A stretch of DNA of 64,000 nucleotides, from NCBI GenBank assembly GCA_964429815.1, contig CAYSCM010000001.1, forward strand, positions 32,001 to 96,000. The letters are read 5' to 3'. Below the pieces are notes generated by a model. It did no database searches. It saw nothing but the letters and a program-made list of their open reading frames with translations, and had not been told where the DNA came from. The position numbers and the translations under genes were made by a program. The stretch is from an uncultured Candidatus Saccharibacteria bacterium. Lineage in GTDB: Bacteria; Patescibacteriota; Minisyncoccia; Phycocordibacterales; CAYSCM01. Every line of letters starts with the position of its first letter. Position 1 is the first letter of the stretch. Below are positions 39,621-64,000 of this stretch, one piece after another.

Positions 39621-40829
39621 TCAGCGCGAAAGGAGCGGCATAAATACCCTTTCGCGCATACCGGCAGCGACGAGGCTCCAGTCATATTTTTCAAACACGA
39701 GCTTGCGAGCATACTTGACGACTCCCGAGACCTTCTCGGGACCGGCAAGAATATCTTCGACCGCCGCGACGATATCGCTCGGAGAGTCTTTATCGACGGC
39801 CCACCCGGTGGTCGGTTTGTCGGGGTTTCGTTTCGCATCAAACAGGAAGTCCGCAATGCCCCCTTCCTGGGTCCCAATGACGGGAATTCCTGCTGCCATA
39901 GCTTCGATGAATGAATTTCCCATGCCCTCCGAGCGGCTCGGGCGGATGAAAATATCGCACGCTTTGAGATACTTCGGCATCTCGTCATGAGAGAGCTGGC
40001 CGAGGAATTTCACCCGCCTCTCGACCCCAAGCTCCCGCGCAAGGGCCTTTAGTTTTATCTCGTCGGGCCCGACGCCAAAGACGACGAAATGGACACTCTG
40101 TGGAAGGCCGCGCTGTGCGCGTATGACGTCGTCGACAGCGTTTTTGTGGACAAGCCGGGAAGTCGTCACCAGAAAAACATCGCCCTCTTTCTTGCCGAGG
40201 AGCGTCTTCACCGTTTCCATCTCCTCGGGCGGATAGGAGGCCGAGAAACGTTTGGTATCAACGGCGTTCGGGATGATTTCAAGGCGCCCCTTGAAACCTC
40301 GTCGGCGCGCCCAGGAGCCTAAGAACGTGGAGATCGCTTGGATAGTGTCGGCCGTCGTGAAGGCGCGAGAAAAAAGTGGCCATACCGGGCGAGCCAGGCG
40401 TTCGATATGCTCCGGTGGATCACCTTCTTGGAGGGTGAGAATAAACGGGACCTTGGGGTGGAACCACTTGAAAAGCGCCGCGGGGATGCCACATGAGTGC
40501 GCCATCATTGCCCAGATAGCATCGAAGTGATACCTCCGGTGAAGCGAGAGGGCCTTCCAGGCCGCAAGAAACTGAAAGAGATGCTTATTGTAGTGGAGGG
40601 GAAATCGCTTAAGGTCTGCCATCGTGGGGTTCGGACGCGCAGGCCCAATGCGATGGACATACACATTTCCTATTTTTTCTTCCTTGGGAAGGGAGGAGTC
40701 GAATCTCAGGCACACCATGTGAAGTTCAATTTCAGATGTAGCAATGCGATCAGTAATTTCTTTGATAGCCACCTCTGCCCCGCCCACGTGCGGGTAATAG
40801 GTCAGGGAAAAAATGAGTATTCGTTTCAT
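39621..40829 (-). CDS. glycosyltransferase family 4
   Basis: ATG 40829 gives MKRILIFSLTYYPHVGGAE. ATGA overlap with the upstream epimerase. C-terminal EAMAAGIPVIGT. Confidence 0.65.
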   Translation of the reverse strand: MKRILIFSLTYYPHVGGAEVAIKEITDRIATSEIELHMVCLRFDSSLPKEEKIGNVYVHRIGPARPNPTMADLKRFPLHYNKHLFQFLAAWKALSLHRRYHFDAIWAMMAHSCGIPAALFKWFHPKVPFILTLQEGDPPEHIERLARPVWPLFSRAFTTADTIQAISTFLGSWARRRGFKGRLEIIPNAVDTKRFSASYPPEEMETVKTLLGKKEGDVFLVTTSRLVHKNAVDDVIRAQRGLPQSVHFVVFGVGPDEIKLKALARELGVERRVKFLGQLSHDEMPKYLKACDIFIRPSRSEGMGNSFIEAMAAGIPVIGTQEGGIADFLFDAKRNPDKPTTGWAVDKDSPSDIVAAVEDILAGPEKVSGVVKYARKLVFEKYDWSLVAAGMRERVFMPLLSR

Positions 40830-41689
40830 GTGCGCCGCGCTTCCTTGATGTATTCCTCGACGGACTTGGTTATCTTCCACCCGATGGATTCCGACCTACT
40901 GGTATCGATCGCGGAGCTCATACGATTCCCTGCACGCTCGGGAAGCATTTTAATTTCAGTGCCAAACAGTTTCGCAATGTCGAGGATGGAATATTCACGC
41001 ACATCCCCCAAACCATAGTCATCGCCCTCCCCCCTTTCCCCAACAATCACAAGTCCCTCGACAATGTCGTGCACGTGGGTAAAGTTGCGTTTTTGGGTGC
41101 CGGGAGACACGACCGTAAGGGGTTCCCCCGCAAGATATTTTTGTCGGAAGATTTCTATGACCGTACCGTACGCCCCCGCACGTTCACGCGGCCCATACAC
41201 GTTGTAAAAATAGGTGATCGCGTACGGGACGCCAAACCACACGCCGTAGTTATGAACCAGGTCCGTATTGCTTGCCTTACACCACGCATAGGGGCTCTGG
41301 TGCCTCCCAAGCCCATCATCAGCAAATTTTGTGGACGATCCGGCGTAGACGAGTTTTGATCCACGGTTTCGACAGAACTCCACCACCCCAAATGTTCCAA
41401 GTACATTGAGGTCCCATACCAGTGAAGGCTCGTCAAAGCTCTTTTCGACACGGGAATACTCCCCGAGGTGATATACAACATCAGGTTTCTCCGGTATGTG
41501 CGTGTCGATATCTTTGGTATGCCCCTCGCGATAGGTGACTCCAGGGACGTGATTTTCCCTCGAGCCGGTGAAATAGTTATCGAGGGATATGACCTTATGC
41601 CCATCTTTCGCGAGACGTTCACATAAGTGTGAGCCTATGAAACCGGCTCCGCCGGTCACTAGGATGAGTTTTTGTATAGCCAAAGCCAT
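40826..41689 (-). CDS. NAD-dependent NDP-sugar epimerase/dehydratase (UDP-xylose-synthase-like size)
   Basis: ILVTGGAGFIGSHL Rossmann motif and YAWCK catalytic motif. Confidence 0.6.
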   Translation of the reverse strand: MALAIQKLILVTGGAGFIGSHLCERLAKDGHKVISLDNYFTGSRENHVPGVTYREGHTKDIDTHIPEKPDVVYHLGEYSRVEKSFDEPSLVWDLNVLGTFGVVEFCRNRGSKLVYAGSSTKFADDGLGRHQSPYAWCKASNTDLVHNYGVWFGVPYAITYFYNVYGPRERAGAYGTVIEIFRQKYLAGEPLTVVSPGTQKRNFTHVHDIVEGLVIVGERGEGDDYGLGDVREYSILDIAKLFGTEIKMLPERAGNRMSSAIDTSRSESIGWKITKSVEEYIKEARRT

Positions 41690-41718: not shown

Positions 41719-42498
41719 TTATTCAATGATCTCGTACTCGGCCGCTTCGGCTGACACTGAAATGCTCGAGTCGTGTTTTCGGCGCGCAAGGTATACAGCG
41801 CCTGCGCCGAGCGCTAGCACGGTGCCGAGCGCGAGCCACCACAGGTACGGGGAGTGTTGTTCCTCCCCAGTAGCCACGAACCCCGGCTTCGGGGTCAGTG
41901 CGCTCTCTACAACGCCCGGGGGTGGCTCGAGGTTGGCGGGCTTTCGCGACGCTTTTTGTGTAATCACATTTGGGGAAGAAGGAGCGGTTTTTGCTGTCGG
42001 GATATCGGCTTGCGCGAGTGCCCGACCTGGAGAAGGTTTCGCGGCGATGAAGCCTCCGAGGGTGCGTGAGAGCGAAAGTCCGTCCCCTGCCGCGCCAAGC
42101 GCGTGTGTGTACGTGACCGAATCGAGCGTCGAGCTTCCGCTCAAAAGCGCGATTGTTTCGCCGGTATTCGAGAGCGAAAACGAGCTATCAAAAAGCGCCC
42201 CGGTGTAAGATGGGTTGTCGGCCAAAAATTTCGCCGGATCGGCGGCGATGACCGCATACACCCCCGAAGCCAGAACAGACGTACCGGACGCTTTGAGAGT
42301 GTGTCTGACTCCACCCTCGAGCAGCCTGAGGGTCGTAAGGTCGACGGGTCCGCCTCCCCCGTTGTATACCTCGATCCACTCGCGGCCATCATCGGCACCA
42401 GGGAGGTCATAGAGCACCTCGCTGATAGAGACCTGCGCGAAAAGCGGTAGTGGAGCGACGAGGAGCCCGATAAGCGCGCTAGTTCGAGTCATCAGCAA
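41719..42498 (-). CDS. secreted lamin-tail-domain (LTD) protein with signal peptide and C-terminal membrane anchor
   Basis: N-terminal signal-like segment. ISEVLYDLPGADDGREWIEVYN LTD core. S/T/P-rich linker and a C-terminal hydrophobic helix. Confidence 0.5.
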   Translation of the reverse strand: MLMTRTSALIGLLVAPLPLFAQVSISEVLYDLPGADDGREWIEVYNGGGGPVDLTTLRLLEGGVRHTLKASGTSVLASGVYAVIAADPAKFLADNPSYTGALFDSSFSLSNTGETIALLSGSSTLDSVTYTHALGAAGDGLSLSRTLGGFIAAKPSPGRALAQADIPTAKTAPSSPNVITQKASRKPANLEPPPGVVESALTPKPGFVATGEEQHSPYLWWLALGTVLALGAGAVYLARRKHDSSISVSAEAAEYEIIE

Positions 42499-44260
42499 GC
42501 ATTTTTCGAAGCTCTTCGGGTGAGGGTTCGCCCGTATGCTGTTGTGTCGGAGTCGCTTCGTTGGTCAATTCTTTCGATGATTCCCCCTTTCGTTCCTCCT
42601 GGGCTCGAGCGCGCTCAGCCATAGCCTTTGCGAGTGCATCGCGCAGTGCATTGTTTTGTTTCGGAGTCTCCGGCTGCGCCTGCTCCCTTTTATCTTTCTT
42701 TTCGAGCTCTTTCCCGGCCACCTGGCGTAGCGTCTCGCGAAGTTTCGCAAGATGGTCTCCTGTCGACTGCTGCGGGCGAGAAGATATCTGTGAAGGAACT
42801 CCCGTGGAAGGAGGAGGTGCTCTTCTCTCCTCACGGCGGGTATCAGCTCCGCGCTCAGGGCGCGCTTCAGCATTACGATGTTCGCGGGGACGAGATCCCC
42901 CGTTGCGGTCTCGGGAGGAAACGCCCGCTCCGGCAGGAGCCGTCGATGGTCGCAGGGGTTCCACCGGTTCATGCCACTTGGCAATATCCCGCTCGACATC
43001 AGCACGTGGGCGAGCAAATTGCTGGCGCGACATCGCAAGGATTTCTTGCTTAAAGGAGCGCGTGGGTGCCTCAATTGGCGGAAGAGTTACGGCAGAAAAG
43101 GGCGGCGAGCCGACGCCGTCGATCATGAGTGAGAGGTATATCTGGCGAAGACCAAGGTTGACGATATCCTCTGCAGTAAATTTTGGCGCAAAAACTTTCT
43201 CCAGGAGCTCCGCATCGAGTGGACCCACTCGAAAGGCGATAGTGGTGCCAACGTTGCCAAACACCGCATCGCGCACCTCCTCTTCCATTTGTTCCACATA
43301 TTGATGTGCGATGGTGAGGGAGAGCCTATATTTGCGGGCCTCGGCAAGAATATCCGCAAAGGATGCATTCGCAAACGACTGAAACTCGTCTACGTAAAAA
43401 TAGAGACTGGGGAGTTTGGCCTGTGTTGCGGCGGAAGTATCTGCGCGGCTCATGGCGGCCAAATAGATGCGCGTGGTGAGCATAGAACCAAGAAGTGCTG
43501 TGTTTGTCTCCCCCACTAAGCCCTTGGAGAGATTCATGATGATGATTTTTTTCTCATCCATCAATTTACGCAAGTCAAAAGAAGATTTGGACTGTCCGAT
43601 GATGTTGCGAATAAGGGGGTTGGAGCTGTACTGCCCCACCTTGTTCTGAATTGCAGGGGTTGCTTCTGCTGCGAAGCGCTCAGTGTACTTGGCAAATTCA
43701 TTGACCCAAAACGCTTTCACTGATGGGTCGGAAATGTTAGCGACAACTCGATCTCGATAGGGTTTATCCGAGAGCATGCGGTTCACCGCAAGGAGCGTTG
43801 TGTCTGGATATTCCAAAAGTGCCAAGAGTGTATTGGTAAGGATGTATTCCATGCGGGCGCTCCAGGTGTCTGGGCCCCACACTTTTTTAAAGGCACTCAT
43901 AAGTCCCGAGGCGACGAAGTGTCTTCGCGCTGGACCCACATCTTCCATCACGTTGAAGGCCACCGGGTAGTCGGTATCAAACGGCGCGAAATAGAGCACG
44001 TCTTTCACACGCTCGGCCGGAATATAGTCGAGAAGTTTTTCAGCCGTGCCACCGTGCGGATCGATAAAGGCAAGTCCCTCACCATTCATAATGTCCTGGA
44101 TGGCCATGTTCTCGAGAAGAGTCGACTTACCCATGCCCGTTTTACCGATGACATAGACGTGCCGTGAGCGGTCTTTGGCTTTGATGCCAAAGGGGGTGCG
44201 CTTGCCGCGTGAGTCGGTAACAGCAAAATACGTTATCCTCTCGTCGGGATTCATCTTCAT
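42479..44260 (-). CDS. VirD4/TraG/TraD-like type IV coupling-protein-type ATPase (orphan) with a long charged low-complexity C-terminal tail
   Basis: Walker A VYVIGKTGMGKSTLLENM. HerA/TraG-like central domain. Disordered R/E/K/P-rich C-terminal 200 aa. Start moved to ATG 44260 because a minus-strand terminator occupies 44291..44320. Confidence 0.6.
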   Translation of the reverse strand: MKMNPDERITYFAVTDSRGKRTPFGIKAKDRSRHVYVIGKTGMGKSTLLENMAIQDIMNGEGLAFIDPHGGTAEKLLDYIPAERVKDVLYFAPFDTDYPVAFNVMEDVGPARRHFVASGLMSAFKKVWGPDTWSARMEYILTNTLLALLEYPDTTLLAVNRMLSDKPYRDRVVANISDPSVKAFWVNEFAKYTERFAAEATPAIQNKVGQYSSNPLIRNIIGQSKSSFDLRKLMDEKKIIIMNLSKGLVGETNTALLGSMLTTRIYLAAMSRADTSAATQAKLPSLYFYVDEFQSFANASFADILAEARKYRLSLTIAHQYVEQMEEEVRDAVFGNVGTTIAFRVGPLDAELLEKVFAPKFTAEDIVNLGLRQIYLSLMIDGVGSPPFSAVTLPPIEAPTRSFKQEILAMSRQQFARPRADVERDIAKWHEPVEPLRPSTAPAGAGVSSRDRNGGSRPREHRNAEARPERGADTRREERRAPPPSTGVPSQISSRPQQSTGDHLAKLRETLRQVAGKELEKKDKREQAQPETPKQNNALRDALAKAMAERARAQEERKGESSKELTNEATPTQQHTGEPSPEELRKMLADDSN

Positions 44261-44290
44261 GAGTATAGCAATTTTGCCGCCATCGCGATG

Positions 44291-44320
44291 CAAAAAGCCC
44301 CGCACTCTTTTGCGGGGCTT
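44291..44320 (-). terminator. rho-independent terminator (minus strand)
   Basis: AGCCCCGCA / TGCGGGGCT stem with a T-run on the minus strand. Confidence 0.6.
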
Positions 44321-44338
44321 CCAGGTGTACGGCTTCGA

Positions 44339-44554
44339 TCAATGAACGCTGACCGGCTCGAGATCGTGGCTTTTCACGGCCTGGAACGCTGTGTCACGGT
44401 CGCTGATGATCGCGAGTTGGGTCCCGTCTGCCGCGTGGACGGAGAATGCGCGCTCACCATTTTCAACGACCGGCTTGATGTAGGCCACCCTATTTAGCAT
44501 CCACACCTGCCACTCAGCCTGCGTCAGGGGCCTGTAGATGGTGTCGGTTTTCAT
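44339..44554 (-). CDS. small hypothetical protein (71 aa)
   Basis: GAGGTG 6 nt upstream of the ATG. Followed by the terminator at 44291..44320. Confidence 0.45.
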   Translation of the reverse strand: MKTDTIYRPLTQAEWQVWMLNRVAYIKPVVENGERAFSVHAADGTQLAIISDRDTAFQAVKSHDLEPVSVH

Positions 44555-44619: not shown

Positions 44620-45975
44620 CTACTGTGCCGCTGTCGTCGAAGCCGCTGGTTCACGCGCCAACACCGTGCGCAAGCTCGTGTACTTGTTCGCGGCATCCCA
44701 GATGAGGTACGAGTTCAGGCCGGAGTCGAGGTTTGCTTGTATCTGCTCCTTCACCATGTCAGGCGTGTAGGTGACGGGGTAGTCAAACGATTGGAGCCAG
44801 GGGCGAATGATGGAAGCGGGATAGGCCGGCTTTGAGTACAGACCGCTCGCCAATTCCCTGGTCGTCGTGGGAGTCGTCGTCCCCGCCACTTCCACGGTTT
44901 TCATGATGGGCGTGTAGGCCATCGAAAAGAGCTCGGTGGTGGTCGCCATCGCCCGTGCGACTGCCGAGTCGAGAGAGACTCTAACCACCTTGTACGGGTC
45001 CGAGTTGACGTTTTTAAGTCCAACAAAGCCGCTGTTGTAGTGGGAAGGGTAGACCATTGGGTCTATGAAGTCGAAGTAGGGCATCGCGCGCTCGAGAACC
45101 TGTCCGATACCGAGGTCGTCGACGTGGACCGTCACATAGCCGAAGAGATCGGCGGACATAACGGCGCCGATCTGCTTTACGTGAGCGTGCAAATATTGGA
45201 AAAACTCCTCGAGCGCCTGCGCCTTGGTCTTCCCCTCGTCGAGCATATAAACCGCATCCGCCATAGGACCATCCGAGGGGAAGCGAATGTAATCGAAGTT
45301 AAGCTCGTCGAAGCCCATCTCCTCGTACGAGACTTTGCTCAGTTCGACGATGTAGTCCCAAAACGGTTTCGCGCCGACGTCGACAAACGAGAGTCCTCCA
45401 TAGTTTTTCCAAATCCCTCCCTTTTTGCTTTGCACCGCGAGATCGGGATGCTCCTTCGTGTAGGTGGGGTCTTGGAAGACAGTAATGCGGCCGATGACGT
45501 AAATGCCCTTGTCGTGCAGGTTTTTAACGAACGACTTCATGTCGGCCGCACCGCACGCTTTCGAGACATTATCCCGGAGGAGTGAGCTATCGGTCGGAAA
45601 GGCGATGCCGCCGGAGTAGTCCTTTATGTCAATGACGATTGCGTTGAGTTCGGTCCTGTCGATGAGCCCCAGAAGGTCTTTGCGGAACGAGGGCGTACCC
45701 GCCGCGCACTGGCTCATGTAGATGGCCTTCACGGGGTCCGGGGTCGGCACATGGGTGATCGAGGGGTGTTGCACGATGGTGGTCGTGGCCGCCGAGGTCG
45801 AGCTGGCGAGCGTGGCATTGTGATAAGACGTTTCAATAGCGGCCGGAATGCCGAAAAAGGCCGCCGCGGCCACGCCGGAGAGAAGAAGCCCAAGATAGGC
45901 TCCCCGGATAAGCCCCAAGGGCTGTTTTTTAGGAGCGCGCATCGACGCCAGGGCGTTCACGCATCGCGCTGTCAC
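44620..45975 (-). CDS. putative glycoside hydrolase-like TIM-barrel protein with N-terminal membrane anchor (DUF4015-like)
   Basis: N-terminal TM helix. Ser/Thr-rich linker, then a domain with acidic motifs (DFIDPMVYPSHY, GFDELNFDYIRFP). GTG 45975 is preceded by AGGAGG. Confidence 0.45.
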   Translation of the reverse strand: MTARCVNALASMRAPKKQPLGLIRGAYLGLLLSGVAAAAFFGIPAAIETSYHNATLASSTSAATTTIVQHPSITHVPTPDPVKAIYMSQCAAGTPSFRKDLLGLIDRTELNAIVIDIKDYSGGIAFPTDSSLLRDNVSKACGAADMKSFVKNLHDKGIYVIGRITVFQDPTYTKEHPDLAVQSKKGGIWKNYGGLSFVDVGAKPFWDYIVELSKVSYEEMGFDELNFDYIRFPSDGPMADAVYMLDEGKTKAQALEEFFQYLHAHVKQIGAVMSADLFGYVTVHVDDLGIGQVLERAMPYFDFIDPMVYPSHYNSGFVGLKNVNSDPYKVVRVSLDSAVARAMATTTELFSMAYTPIMKTVEVAGTTTPTTTRELASGLYSKPAYPASIIRPWLQSFDYPVTYTPDMVKEQIQANLDSGLNSYLIWDAANKYTSLRTVLAREPAASTTAAQ

Positions 45976-47244: not shown

Positions 47245-47276
47245 GGACGCCCGCCACAAACGGGCGTCTATTTTTT
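47245..47276 (+). terminator. rho-independent terminator
   Basis: GACGCCCG-CCACAAA-CGGGCGTC followed by TATTTTTTT. Confidence 0.65.
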
Positions 47277-47810
47277 TGGAAAAATCGCCATACGGCGCCA
47301 GTCCAGAAAGAATGCCGGGAGAGGAACAAAATAGTTTTTGAGAGCATCCTTCTCCGAACCGGCGGGGTCGTGATAGAAAAAACCTGCGATTTCCCCGCCC
47401 TCACCCTCTCGAACCCCCACTAAAAGTACCTGATGGAATTTACGTTGATCCCAGAGGCGTAGTTGTGTCGAAATTATAACAGGATTCCCTATCTTAATGG
47501 CATTGCGAATCTGTGTGATATCGCGCTCGGACATCTGCTCTTTTCGCTCACATCCAAAACCAAATCTTTGTATAAGCGAGACCGAATAGTCATGTATCCA
47601 CCCCGAATCGCCGTAGCCTCCTTCCCTCATACCCCGTGCAATGAGTTCATCGAGACTCGGCAATTTTGCACCAAAGTACGCAAGCGCCATGTATACACAG
47701 GTCATCCCGCAGGAAAAAATACGTGAGTCAGGATTTTTGACGTCACGATACTGGGAATAGTAGGGAACTTCGAGAATCGTATCCGTGAAGGTTATCTGTC
47801 GGGTCATCAT
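47268..47810 (-). CDS. papain-like cysteine peptidase, C39-like domain protein
   Basis: Putative catalytic Cys in FSCGMTCVYMA with a downstream His. About 180 aa, as in stand-alone C39-like proteins. Confidence 0.5.
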   Translation of the reverse strand: MMTRQITFTDTILEVPYYSQYRDVKNPDSRIFSCGMTCVYMALAYFGAKLPSLDELIARGMREGGYGDSGWIHDYSVSLIQRFGFGCERKEQMSERDITQIRNAIKIGNPVIISTQLRLWDQRKFHQVLLVGVREGEGGEIAGFFYHDPAGSEKDALKNYFVPLPAFFLDWRRMAIFPKK

Positions 47811-47817
47811 GGTTGTA

Positions 47818-48282
47818 TTACGAAGTTAGAAATGGGTGGATATAAATAGCTGCCACCTTACGAACAGGATTACCCTCCGCCTGTGCCGCGTAATGTAGAG
47901 GATGTTCAATCGGGATGCGATATTCGAAACGGCTGCTGACGGCGGTCTTTTCGTTGAGCACAAAACCGTTGTGCTCATGCATTTCCTCATCTCTCTGTTT
48001 TATTTTTTCCCAAAGAACGACAGCTCCAGGGACTGGTTTATCCGTTGTGGTCCATCCTGATGCTTCCATATCCCGTGTCGTGCCCGAGACTGTGGCATGA
48101 ACTTCCTTAAGCAACTTGAAGTGGTACAGGATTGAAGAAACAAAATAAGCGCAAGAAACATCACCGTCGCGCAAGATGTCCTCCTTCTTGCCATCCACCT
48201 CCGCATAAAGAGTGCGAAAAAGGTTCGAACCGACCGAGTTGCGGATCATCGCGAGGTAGGTGTCCTTCAATAAAAATTTCAT
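47818..48282 (-). CDS. hypothetical protein, possible second papain-like (Cys-His) fold
   Basis: GDVSCAYFVSSI candidate nucleophile plus downstream HEHNGF. Tandem with the C39-like gene. Confidence 0.35.
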   Translation of the reverse strand: MKFLLKDTYLAMIRNSVGSNLFRTLYAEVDGKKEDILRDGDVSCAYFVSSILYHFKLLKEVHATVSGTTRDMEASGWTTTDKPVPGAVVLWEKIKQRDEEMHEHNGFVLNEKTAVSSRFEYRIPIEHPLHYAAQAEGNPVRKVAAIYIHPFLTS

Positions 48283-50388: not shown

Positions 50389-50528
50389 TATACCAGTACG
50401 CATTTCTGGAAAGCGAGCAGACTTTAAAGACATACTGCTATGGTCTACTTCCGTACTCGATCGAGATACAGAATATCGACCGGATAAGTCTTACCTTCCG
50501 AAGAAGGAGACAGTTCCGATTGGAATTA

Positions 50529-51973
<1,445 letters not shown>

Positions 51974-51986
51974 AGCTAAGAATTCG

Positions 51987-60914: not shown

Positions 60915-61022
60915 AACCTGGCGGCTACCTACTCTCCCCTTGCGAGTACCATCGGCGCTAGCGGGCTTAACGGCCGTGTTCGGAATGAGAACGGGTGTTT
61001 CCCCGCCGCCAAACCACCAGAT
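60915..61022 (-). rRNA. rrf: 5S ribosomal RNA
   Basis: Minus-strand read UCUGGUGGUUUGGCGGCGGGGAAACACCCGUUCUCAUUCCGAACACGGCCGUUAAGCCCGCUAGCGCCGAUGGUACUCGCAAGGGGAGAGUAGGUAGCCGCCAGGU. Helix I and loop C/E conserved. Flanked by the inverted repeat CCGTCCAAAATGT / ACATTTTGGACGG, which forms a processing stem. Confidence 0.85.

Positions 61023-61459: not shown

Positions 61460-64000
<2,541 letters not shown>

What the first reader, a model, noticed from the sequence alone, without database searches (positions are those of the whole stretch)
41719..44320. Orphan VirD4/TraG-like coupling-protein ATPase overlapping an LTD surface protein gene, with no relaxase or VirB genes nearby
The ATPase has a Walker A motif, a TraG/HerA-like core and a 200-aa highly charged disordered tail (RDRNGGSRPREHRNAEARPERGADTRREERRAPPPS...). 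It starts right after a minus-strand terminator. Its 3' end overlaps the start of a secreted lamin-tail-domain protein by 20 nt, suggesting co-translation. In small-genome bacteria such pairs have been proposed to mediate DNA uptake or cell-cell interaction rather than conjugation.
Basis: partly seen in the sequence, partly recalled or inferred. Interest (0 to 1): 0.5.

Follow-up and report, generated by a model that had tools for sequence, protein, structure and literature searches.

The report
Orphan secretion-type ATPase with surface partner
A very strongly conserved, membrane-anchor-less motor protein related to conjugation ATPases is a core chromosomal gene of these ultra-small bacteria, is not part of a mobile element, and is usually paired with a surface-anchored protein whose outer domain looks like a DNA receptor, which makes it a testable candidate DNA-transport module.

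Summary
The ATPase is 42479-44260(-), 593 aa, and starts at an ATG. The LTD gene is 41719-42492(-), 257 aa. The overlap is 14 nt and the disordered tail is about 150 aa.

The ATPase has a VirB4/VirD4-clade fold, passes the Pfam thresholds of three coupling-protein families, and has no transmembrane segment. No VirB, relaxase or integrase gene lies anywhere in the 64 kb. The surroundings are Paceibacteria-type housekeeping and glycan-synthesis genes.

It is not a fragment of a conjugative element. More than 8000 homologues exist, and the core is about 73% identical across 80 species, more conserved than any neighbouring gene.

In 48 of 75 related loci the next gene encodes a signal peptide, an LTD or ComEA-type HhH head, usually PKD, and a C-terminal membrane anchor. 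The HhH head replaced the LTD head at least four times, which points to extracellular DNA binding.

Relatives in other CPR classes carry an N-terminal anchor plus DUF8128, which I find is VirB4-N-domain-like. They sit beside a sigma70_r4/HARE-HTH gene instead.

Orphan coupling-protein homologues in Patescibacteria were published in 2025, but I found no report of the partner gene or the domain history.

Function is inferred: a DNA-transport motor, most likely for uptake. A remote T4SS partner is the main rival.

The parts
42479..44260 (-). VirB4/VirD4-clade ATPase gene (593 aa, cytoplasmic, no TM segment); the true start is ATG 44260
42941..44260 (-). Conserved ATPase core (residues 1-440): RecA-like nucleotide-binding domain with an inserted all-alpha domain (helices at about 113-235)
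   Evidence: pLDDT mostly above 90. Median identity 72.7% to 80 species. More than 100 invariant columns across 120 homologues.
44123..44146 (-). Walker A motif, GKTGMGKS (residues 39-46)
   Evidence: Invariant in 120 homologues; coordinates.
43382..43402 (-). Walker B region, YFYVDEF (residues 287-293; D291 and E292 invariant)
42482..42940 (-). Disordered, R/E/A/P-rich C-terminal tail (residues 441-593) with three short conserved amphipathic helices: 42713-42754, 42599-42649 and 42494-42520
   Evidence: pLDDT below 60 except for helices 502-516, 537-555 and 581-589. The motifs dLRxvL (twice) and LermmRv are conserved within the Paceibacteria type only. Composition and charge.
44293..44322 (-). 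Terminator-like hairpin (12-bp stem plus U-run) between the DUF1150 ORF and the ATPase start
   Evidence: Sequence. Fold: -29.9 kcal/mol for the 84-nt stretch, z = -2.2.
42479..42492 (-). 14-nt overlap between the end of the ATPase gene and the start of the LTD gene
   Evidence: The same 14-nt overlap occurs in L001/L002. The partner gene starts within -38 to +20 nt of the ATPase stop in 39 of 46 related loci.
41719..42492 (-). Surface-anchored LTD protein gene (257 aa): signal peptide 42433-42492, LTD domain 42106-42438, Pro/Ser/Ala-rich linker, TM helix 41785-41847, cytoplasmic C-terminal EYEIIE motif 41722-41739
   Evidence: Pfam LTD E = 4.9e-13. Database copy P0391 is 257 aa. TM helix and tail. 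Proteins in the orthologous position in 48 of 75 loci.
44620..45975 (-). Conserved upstream syntenic neighbour: membrane-anchored or secreted DUF4015 (glycoside-hydrolase-like) protein. Listed as context; a functional link is not shown.
   Evidence: Pfam DUF4015 E = 5e-86. Present upstream in 47 of 80 loci.
39621..41689 (-). Conserved downstream syntenic neighbours: NAD-dependent epimerase (40826-41689) and GT4 glycosyltransferase (39621-40880). Listed as context; probably the same transcription unit.
   Evidence: Pfam. The epimerase is present in 34 and the GT4 in 61 of 80 loci. No terminator-like site follows the LTD gene.

Best explanation
Identity (well supported). The 593-aa protein is a cytoplasmic member, lacking a TM segment, of a family of VirB4/VirD4-clade P-loop ATPases (FtsK-HerA superfamily) found across the Candidate Phyla Radiation. 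It is a vertically inherited core chromosomal gene of Paceibacteria-type bacteria. It is not a remnant of a conjugative element.

Domain history. Relatives in other CPR classes carry an N-terminal TM helix plus a DUF8128 domain, which folds like the N-terminal domain of VirB4. The Paceibacteria form lacks that module and has its own tail motifs.

Mechanism (inferred). By analogy with TrwB, VirB4 and HerA, the protein forms a ring ATPase that translocates DNA at the cytoplasmic face of the membrane. In Paceibacteria it is co-transcribed, and probably translationally coupled, with a single-pass surface protein. The extracellular head of that protein is either an LTD or a ComEA-type helix-hairpin-helix module, which suggests an extracellular DNA receptor.

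The most likely role is therefore a DNA-uptake or DNA-exchange module: the anchored receptor captures DNA outside the cell and the ATPase powers or gates its passage inside. The ATPase would be recruited by a partner. One candidate is the receptor's cytoplasmic [DE][YF]x[IL]xE tail, in the way that TM-less coupling proteins use a small membrane partner.

What is shown: fold, motifs, absence of a TM segment, conservation, synteny, and the domain swaps in the partner. What is inferred: ring assembly, DNA as the substrate, direction of transport, and physical contact with the partner.
For: - Core-gene status. There are 5,846 50%-identity clusters at E <= 1e-30 and at least 589 species hits. The core has a median identity of 72.7%, against 46-60% for neighbouring genes. 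Synteny is conserved. Flanks are housekeeping and glycan genes, with no T4SS or relaxase gene in 64 kb.
- Partner gene. In 48 of 75 loci the next gene has a signal peptide, an LTD and/or HHH_3 head, and a C-terminal TM helix. Of the 49 locus proteins scanned, Pfam finds LTD in 42 and PKD in up to 42; HHH_3 occurs in 7. Every LTD hit (45) and every HhH hit (7) within +/-8 kb is that one gene.
- Ancestry of the pairing. The partner occurs in both deep clades of the ATPase tree. HhH replaced or joined LTD at least four times independently. L037 has exactly the window's architecture, with HhH in place of LTD and the same EFEIINE tail.
- Spacing is tight: within -38 to +20 nt in 39 of 46 loci.
- Other nucleic-acid links in the family. 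One relative has a C-terminal S1 domain. In 69 of 80 DUF8128-type loci a sigma70_r4/HARE-HTH DNA-binding protein lies immediately upstream, preceded by TopA, and by DprA in L083.
- Literature. T4CP homologues occur in 96% of CPR genomes against 80% for VirB4, and only 148 of 5,713 lie near virB4. The Southlakia homologue is dispensable, unlike the T4SS (PMC12102498). The com genes are also dispensable in that organism (PMC10633639). TM-less T4CPs that use a small membrane partner are a known subtype (PMC7434980). LTDs occur in extracellular nucleases and ComEC-like proteins (PMC6085458 and PMC5118699).
Against: - No experiment bears on this family.
- 27 of 75 related loci lack the partner gene next to the ATPase; GT4 or epimerase follows directly, with equally tight spacing. 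Adjacency may therefore be inherited gene order in streamlined genomes.
- None of the 80 DUF8128-type loci has an LTD or HhH gene within 8 kb.
- The biochemical role of bacterial LTDs is unsettled. Membrane targeting or glycan binding has been proposed, and the LTD is dispensable for ExeM nuclease activity in vivo. PKD domains are typical of adhesins.
- The block is embedded in envelope-glycan genes.
- Known VirD4 and VirB4 ATPases export rather than import.
- 18 of the 42 partner proteins that have a C-terminal TM helix have no cytoplasmic tail, so tail-mediated recruitment cannot be general.
- About 73% identity across a class is unusually high for an accessory competence factor.
- The 80 loci are the best-scoring of at least 589, so the statistics are biased towards closer relatives.
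Confidence: 0.38

Rival explanations
1. It is the coupling or second energising ATPase of the chromosomal Patescibacterial type IV secretion system, which is encoded elsewhere in the genome (typically near dnaA). The TM-less ATPase would dock onto VirB4, or onto a stand-alone VirB4-N-domain-like protein such as TrsD, and would recruit substrates. On this reading the LTD gene is only a syntenic neighbour.
For: - It is homologous to T4CP and VirB4 ATPases.
- The Southlakia T4SS cluster lacks a recognisable coupling protein in cis (PMC10633639).
- T4CP genes are often unlinked from virB4.
- TrsD, an N-domain-only protein, is the most abundant T4SS component found in CPR (PMC12102498).
Against: - The T4SS genes are essential in Southlakia but the t4cp homologue is not.
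- T4CP homologues occur in about 500 more genomes than VirB4 does.
- There is no TM domain.
- No T4SS gene appears in the window. The two genes on each side of the ATPase in the DUF8128-type loci showed none among the commonest Pfam families, and the two annotated loci L083 and L084 have none within 10 kb.
- This reading does not explain the position-specific LTD/HhH partner.
Confidence: 0.3
2. It is a housekeeping DNA translocase or other nucleoprotein-remodelling ATPase acting inside the cell, for example in chromosome segregation or resolution at division, or in a transcription- or topology-linked process. The LTD protein would then be an unrelated adhesin or envelope protein that shares an operon only through conserved gene order.
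For: - Conservation is extreme and the gene is near-universal.
- The flanks are housekeeping genes: dcw genes, FtsH, MurJ, TopA and a sigma-like factor in the DUF8128-type loci, and FtsQ, FtsW and SecDF downstream.
- The basic, disordered tail and the S1-domain fusion suit intracellular nucleic-acid binding.
- 27 of 75 loci have no partner gene.
Against: - The DUF8128-type relatives are membrane-anchored and have a VirB4-like N-terminal domain. That points to a membrane machine.
- The Southlakia homologue is dispensable in Tn-seq, which is unexpected for a segregation motor.
- The repeated swap of LTD for ComEA-type HhH at exactly this position is hard to ascribe to chance synteny.
Confidence: 0.2
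3. It is a fragment of an integrative conjugative or mobilisable element, or part of an anti-phage defence island (a MADS-like or HerA-type ATPase).
For: - The Pfam T4CP hits.
- A PADLOC hit to mad8, E = 1.4e-14.
Against: - There is no integrase, relaxase, VirB, methyltransferase or other mad/dpt gene in 64 kb.
- Base composition does not differ from the flanks.
- The chromosomal position is identical in dozens of species.
- The ATPase tree and the neighbourhood pattern are consistent with vertical descent.
- The gene is more conserved than the housekeeping genes around it.
Confidence: 0.03

Closest known systems
Orphan VirD4-like 'T4CP' homologues of Patescibacteria (Quinonero-Coronel et al. 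2025, PMC12102498)
   Same: This gene almost certainly belongs to that set. It is VirD4-like by HMM, chromosomal, far from virB4, has no relaxase nearby, and the family is near-universal in the phylum.
   Different: The parts of that paper that I read (the passages found and section 12) count these genes and only raise exaptation as a possibility. In those parts I saw no mention of the following: the TM-less Paceibacteria subtype, the LTD/HhH partner gene, the DUF8128 (VirB4-N-domain-like) module of the other classes, or the sigma70_r4/HARE-HTH neighbour. No paper in the library contains the term DUF8128, and none combines Patescibacteria with lamin tail domain.
Canonical type IV coupling proteins (TrwB of R388, VirD4, TraD/TraG, Cagbeta, DotL)
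   Same: It has a RecA-like nucleotide-binding domain with an inserted all-alpha domain and Walker A and B motifs. It is the best Foldseek match to TrwB (E = 8e-12, TM 0.63) and scores above the Pfam cut-offs of three T4CP families.
   Different: Identity is about 14%. There is no N-terminal membrane domain. It is not linked to relaxase or Mpf genes. NCBIfam equivalog cut-offs are missed by a wide margin. The tail is basic and carries family-specific motifs, unlike the acidic TraM-binding tail of TraD.
VirB4 (TrwK of R388; C-terminal domain of Thermoanaerobacter VirB4)
   Different: Neither CagE_TrbE_VirB nor AAA_10 scores on the window protein. Sequence profiles favour the VirD4/TraD type. 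The window protein has no N-terminal domain at all. It is not located in the T4SS cluster.
TM-less coupling protein plus small membrane partner (TraJ/TraI of pIP501)
   Same: A soluble VirD4-like ATPase is encoded next to a gene for a membrane protein that could anchor it (PMC7434980).
   Different: The pIP501 pair lies inside a conjugation operon with a relaxase. Here the partner has a large extracellular LTD or HhH head, and no Mpf genes are present. Interaction between the two proteins is untested.
Gram-positive competence machinery: ComEA (membrane-anchored HhH DNA receptor) and ComFA (cytoplasmic ssDNA translocase)
   Same: The logic is the same: an anchored extracellular DNA-binding module working with a cytoplasmic ATPase. 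Seven proteins in the orthologous position carry the ComEA-type HHH_3 domain.
   Different: The ATPase is of the VirB4/VirD4 type, not a DEAD-box helicase like ComFA. The window's receptor has an LTD, not HhH. The anchor is C-terminal. No ComEC gene is in view. This is an analogy, not membership.
HerA / FtsK hexameric DNA translocases
   Different: There is no HAS barrel, no NurA partner, and no FtsK gamma or TM domain. The all-alpha insertion is of the T4CP/VirB4 type.

Membership tests
Type IV coupling protein (VirD4/TraG/TraD/TrwB) | RecA-like nucleotide-binding domain with Walker A and Walker B motifs | tested here: met
   GKTGMGKS and hhhhDE are invariant in 120 homologues. The fold matches TrwB.
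Type IV coupling protein (VirD4/TraG/TraD/TrwB) | All-alpha domain inserted between Walker A and Walker B | tested here: met
   Helices at about 113-235 in the model. Pfam TrwB_AAD_bind aligns residues 44-361 to profile positions 12-311 of 387, above its cut-off.
Type IV coupling protein (VirD4/TraG/TraD/TrwB) | N-terminal transmembrane domain anchoring the ATPase to the membrane | tested here: not met
   Walker A begins at residue 39. The maximum Kyte-Doolittle value in a 19-residue window is 1.09, so no TM helix is predicted.
Type IV coupling protein (VirD4/TraG/TraD/TrwB) | Genetic association with a relaxase and/or mating-pair-formation (VirB) genes | tested here: not met
   None in the 64-kb window. 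In the literature, only 148 of 5,713 CPR homologues lie near virB4. The rest of the source genome could not be examined.
Type IV coupling protein (VirD4/TraG/TraD/TrwB) | Scores reach curated family thresholds | tested here: inconclusive
   Pfam gathering scores are met for PF10412, PF02534 and PF12696 by modest margins. All NCBIfam T4CP models fall far below their cut-offs, for example 44.9 against 366 bits.
Type IV coupling protein (VirD4/TraG/TraD/TrwB) | Hexameric ring, DNA-dependent ATPase activity, and binding of the substrate or relaxosome | not testable with these tools
   This needs biochemistry or multimer modelling.
VirB4 | VirB4-type N-terminal domain preceding the ATPase domain | tested here: not met
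   It is absent from the window protein. It is present, as DUF8128, only in relatives from other CPR classes.
VirB4 | C-terminal ATPase domain with the VirB4 fold, and the matching Pfam signature (CagE_TrbE_VirB or AAA_10) | tested here: inconclusive
   [not shown]
TM-less T4CP with small membrane partner (TraJ/TraI type) | Soluble VirD4-like ATPase encoded next to a membrane protein, inside a conjugation operon | tested here: inconclusive
   The first two elements are met. The operon is not a conjugation operon. Interaction between the two proteins was not tested.
Lamin tail domain (PF00932) proteins | LTD Ig-like domain scoring above the Pfam gathering threshold | tested here: met
   49.8 bits against 34.3, E = 4.9e-13, residues 21-131 of the 259-aa ORF.
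ComEA-type DNA receptor | Tandem helix-hairpin-helix (HHH_3) DNA-binding domain | tested here: not met
   The window protein has an LTD only. HHH_3 is found in 7 proteins in the orthologous position.
ComEA-type DNA receptor | Extracytoplasmic, membrane-anchored location | tested here: met
   Signal peptide MTRTSALIGLLVAPLPLFAQ and a C-terminal TM helix at residues 216-236. This is a sequence-based prediction only.
Integrative conjugative element | Integrase, relaxase, VirB4 and other Mpf genes, attachment sites, and atypical base composition | tested here: not met
   No such genes were found. GC content is 0.54-0.57, like the flanks. The locus is conserved across species.

The most novel reading that the evidence does not exclude
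Paceibacteria possess a previously unrecognised two-part DNA-translocation module. One part is a C-terminally anchored surface receptor whose head is interchangeably an LTD or a ComEA-type HhH domain. The other part is a TM-less VirB4/VirD4-like ring ATPase, which the receptor or another partner recruits to the membrane. The ATPase arose by loss of the VirB4-like N-terminal module (TM helix plus DUF8128) from a paralogue found across the CPR that works independently of the T4SS. On this reading a conjugation-type motor has been turned into a chromosomal DNA-import (or DNA-exchange) engine in bacteria that cannot make their own nucleotides.
Probability: 0.22. Interest if true: 0.75.

Novelty: new variant of a known kind. 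Interest (0 to 1): 0.52.

Why it matters
Patescibacteria make up a large share of bacterial diversity, cannot synthesise nucleotides, and depend on hosts. How they move DNA and other macromolecules across their envelope is an open question.

The family is present in nearly every genome of the phylum. Within the class examined here, its core is more conserved than any neighbouring gene I compared it with. Its function is nevertheless unknown.

This work adds concrete handles that I did not find in the literature I could search:
- The Paceibacteria form has lost a VirB4-like membrane module.
- It has a position-specific partner whose head alternates between LTD and a bona fide DNA-receptor domain.
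- The other classes pair the ATPase with a sigma70_r4/HARE-HTH DNA-binding protein.

These observations turn the vague idea of an exapted coupling protein into hypotheses that can be tested in the genetically tractable Saccharibacteria and in vitro. If bacterial LTDs prove to be DNA-binding modules, many LTD-nuclease and LTD-ComEC fusions would also become easier to interpret.

Tried and rejected
- ICE fragment: rejected. See the fourth rival explanation.
- Defence system: only a domain-level PADLOC hit to mad8 was found, with no companion genes.
- Source contig: I tried to reach it beyond the window with the look-up of encoding contigs for P0001 and P0391. Neither is on record, so the rest of the genome (VirB4, TrsD, ComEC, DUF8128, FtsK) could not be checked.
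- Stand-alone DUF8128 gene: none was found in the window or in the 82 Paceibacteria loci.
- sigma70_r4/HARE-HTH neighbour: none was found in the window or in the Paceibacteria loci.
- Paceibacteria tail motifs: I searched the DUF8128-type loci and found no hits there.
- Consensus terminator scan: it missed the hairpin upstream of the ATPase. The hairpin was confirmed by reading and folding the sequence.
- Literature searches: 'Patescibacteria' plus 'lamin tail domain', and 'DUF8128', each returned nothing.


Full report
**What is in the sequence**

Both genes lie on the minus strand.

The ATPase ORF runs mechanically from a GTG at 44305. Alignment with homologues and the identical database entry P0001 (593 aa) place the start at ATG 44260. 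The GTG lies inside a 12-bp hairpin followed by a U-run at 44293-44322, which follows a small DUF1150 ORF.

The LTD gene starts at ATG 42492. Its database copy P0391 is 257 aa. The overlap is therefore 14 nt, the same as in the 73%-identical relative in L001.

The ATPase has an invariant Walker A (residues 39-46) and Walker B (287-293). It has no hydrophobic segment; the maximum Kyte-Doolittle(19) value is 1.09. Its tail of about 150 aa is disordered and rich in R, E, A and P, with three short helices.

The LTD protein consists of a signal peptide, an LTD (Pfam E = 4.9e-13), a linker, a TM helix, and a 21-aa cytoplasmic tail ending in EYEIIE. It is surface-anchored, not secreted.

**Genomic setting**

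The window carries unlinked rRNA genes. It also holds a glycan-biosynthesis island of about 41 kb, RsmI, SecDF and FtsW. Homologues are named Paceibacterota, Kaiserbacteria or Parcubacteria, so this is a CPR/Patescibacteria chromosome.

No VirB, relaxase or integrase gene is present. Base composition is even across the region.

**Family and fold**

- Pfam scores exceed the gathering cut-offs of TrwB_AAD_bind, T4SS-DNA_transf and TraG-D_C.
- NCBIfam aligns VirD4-like models, but far below equivalog cut-offs.
- The AF2 model has pLDDT 82 overall and above 90 in the core.
- By Foldseek it matches TrwB, Cagbeta and DotL best (E about 1e-11, 14% identity).

The protein therefore sits in the VirB4/VirD4 clade of the FtsK-HerA superfamily. 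Sequence favours VirD4. Structure does not decide between the two.

**A core gene, not a mobile one**

- The homologue search saturated at 8000 hits. The top 120 were all 58-79% identical.
- The exhaustive representative search found 5,846 50%-identity clusters at E <= 1e-30.
- Across the 80 loci kept, the ATPase core has a median identity of 72.7% to the window. The corresponding figures are RsmI 55%, DUF4015 46%, epimerase 60%, GT4 47% and LTD 45%. These are the best-scoring 80 loci, so the numbers are biased upward.
- The order RsmI / small TM ORF / DUF4015 / ATPase / (surface protein) / epimerase / GT4 recurs widely.

Together these results dispose of the ICE-fragment reading.

**The partner gene**

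In 75 loci with enough downstream sequence, the next gene on the same strand falls into two groups.

- In 48 loci it encodes a protein with a signal peptide, an N-terminal LTD and/or ComEA-type HHH_3 head, usually PKD domains, and a C-terminal TM anchor. Of the 49 locus proteins scanned, Pfam finds LTD in 42 and PKD in up to 42; HHH_3 occurs in 7.
- In 24 of the other 27 loci, GT4 or epimerase follows directly; the remaining three have other genes.

Every LTD hit (45) and every HhH hit (7) within +/-8 kb of the ATPase is that single gene.

The partner's start lies within -38 to +20 nt of the ATPase stop in 39 of 46 cases.

On a neighbour-joining tree of the ATPase core, LTD-type neighbours occur in both deep clades. 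Loci without a partner form at least six separate groups. HhH heads appear at least four times independently.

L037 (Adlerbacteria) has exactly the window's short architecture, with HhH in place of LTD and the same ...EFEIINE cytoplasmic end.

Because HHH_3 is the established dsDNA-binding module of the competence receptor ComEA, repeated replacement at one position argues that the LTD head does an equivalent job, namely binding extracellular DNA. The literature links bacterial and archaeal LTDs to extracellular nucleases and ComEC-like proteins, but leaves their role unsettled.

**Relatives in other CPR classes**

At about 45-55% core identity, the family carries an extension of 350-450 aa: an N-terminal TM helix plus DUF8128 (PF26449). 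These proteins are named from Saccharimonadia, Microgenomates and Berkelbacteria.

The ancestral architecture thus mirrors VirB3-VirB4, and the Paceibacteria form is the ATPase domain alone.

The neighbours of the DUF8128-type genes are quite different:

- A sigma70_r4 plus HARE-HTH protein lies immediately upstream in 69 of 80 loci.
- TopA often precedes it, and DprA does in L083.
- Downstream genes are varied housekeeping genes.
- There are no LTD or HhH genes.
- No T4SS family appeared among the commonest Pfam families of the two genes on either side.

About nine loci have tandem paralogues. One relative ends in an S1 domain and another has a duplicated core. The Paceibacteria tail motifs were not detected in the DUF8128-type loci.

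**What is already published**

Quinonero-Coronel et al. 2025 found VirD4-like homologues in 2,918 of 3,035 Patescibacteria genomes. Only 148 of the 5,713 lie near virB4. VirB4 itself occurs in 2,417 genomes. The authors note that the Southlakia homologue is dispensable while the T4SS genes are essential, so exaptation 'cannot be ruled out'.

Wang et al. 2023 saw no recognisable coupling protein in the Southlakia T4SS cluster and found the com genes dispensable.

A review lists TM-less coupling proteins that rely on a small membrane partner, with TraJ/TraI of pIP501 as the example.

I found no paper on the LTD/HhH partner, on DUF8128, or on the HARE-HTH neighbour.

**Interpretation**

Identity is secure. 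The gene encodes a TM-less, chromosomal, vertically inherited VirB4/VirD4-clade ATPase belonging to the known set of Patescibacterial 'orphan T4CP homologues'.

Function is inferred. I favour, at about 0.38, a DNA-transport role at the membrane coupled to the anchored DNA-receptor-like partner, with uptake the most likely direction. The ATPase may be recruited through the partner's cytoplasmic [DE][YF]x[IL]xE tail. That motif is present in about 17 of the 42 anchored partners, but 18 have no cytoplasmic tail at all.

The main rival, at about 0.30, is service to the distant T4SS. One possibility is that the ATPase complements the stand-alone VirB4-N-domain-like TrsD. An intracellular housekeeping translocase with a merely syntenic neighbour stands at about 0.20. 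ICE or defence readings stand at about 0.03.

**Verdict**

The gene is a new variant of a known kind rather than a new system. Interest is moderate. The existence of such orphans is published, but the partner gene, its LTD/HhH swaps, and the loss of a VirB4-like N-terminal module are new, testable leads.

Noticed in passing
window 50519-51980(-), 60916-61021(-), 61464-64000(-): The rRNA genes are unlinked. The 16S gene lies about 9 kb from the 5S and 23S genes, with SecDF, an epimerase, a sugar transferase, a GT4 and FtsW in between. The 23S gene runs off the end of the window.
   Followed up: no
window 44339-44554(-): A 71-aa ORF matches DUF1150 (Pfam E = 1.4e-14). It sits between DUF4015 and the ATPase and is followed by the terminator hairpin. 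None of the 82 related loci has a detectable homologue there, and in L001 the two genes are only 28 nt apart. It looks like a lineage-specific insertion.
   Followed up: partly
window about 440-41690: One very long surface-glycan biosynthesis island covers this stretch. It holds many GT4 glycosyltransferases, several epimerases/dehydratases, two sulfotransferases, a radical-SAM protein, a TPP enzyme, an asparagine-synthase-like amidotransferase, C- and FkbM-type methyltransferases, a flippase and a CDP-glycerol glycerophosphotransferase. This is a large investment for a small genome.
   Followed up: partly
L085-L164 (for example L095:6877-7929, L104:6890-7942): In other CPR classes, a conserved protein of about 350 aa with sigma70 region 4 plus HARE-HTH domains lies immediately upstream of the DUF8128-ATPase gene in 69 of 80 loci. 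It is often preceded by topoisomerase I. It is absent from the window and from the Paceibacteria loci.
   Followed up: partly
[not shown]
   Followed up: partly
L130, L132, L142, L143, L149, L152, L156, L158; proteins P0209 and P0216: Several DUF8128-type loci have two tandem paralogous ATPase genes. One representative carries a C-terminal S1 nucleic-acid-binding domain, and another has a tandemly duplicated ATPase core.
   Followed up: no
L007, L055 and many 'uncultured Candidatus Saccharibacteria' records among L003-L082: Two short contigs carrying this Paceibacteria-type gene are filed under Vibrio sp. and Gammaproteobacteria MAGs, which probably reflects binning contamination. Many of the records are labelled Saccharibacteria although their gene type and synteny match the Paceibacteria form.
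   Followed up: no
window 47268-47810(-) and 47818-48282(-): A Peptidase_C39_2-like protein and an adjacent 154-aa protein with no family match lie next to tRNA-Leu and tRNA-Ile. The second has a homologue near the ATPase in only one related locus, L040.
   Followed up: no
window 44263-44268(-): A TATACT hexamer lies immediately upstream of the ATPase ATG, ending 2 nt before it and just downstream of the terminator hairpin. If it is a -10 element, the transcript would be leaderless or nearly so. The promoter scan did not call it.
   Followed up: no
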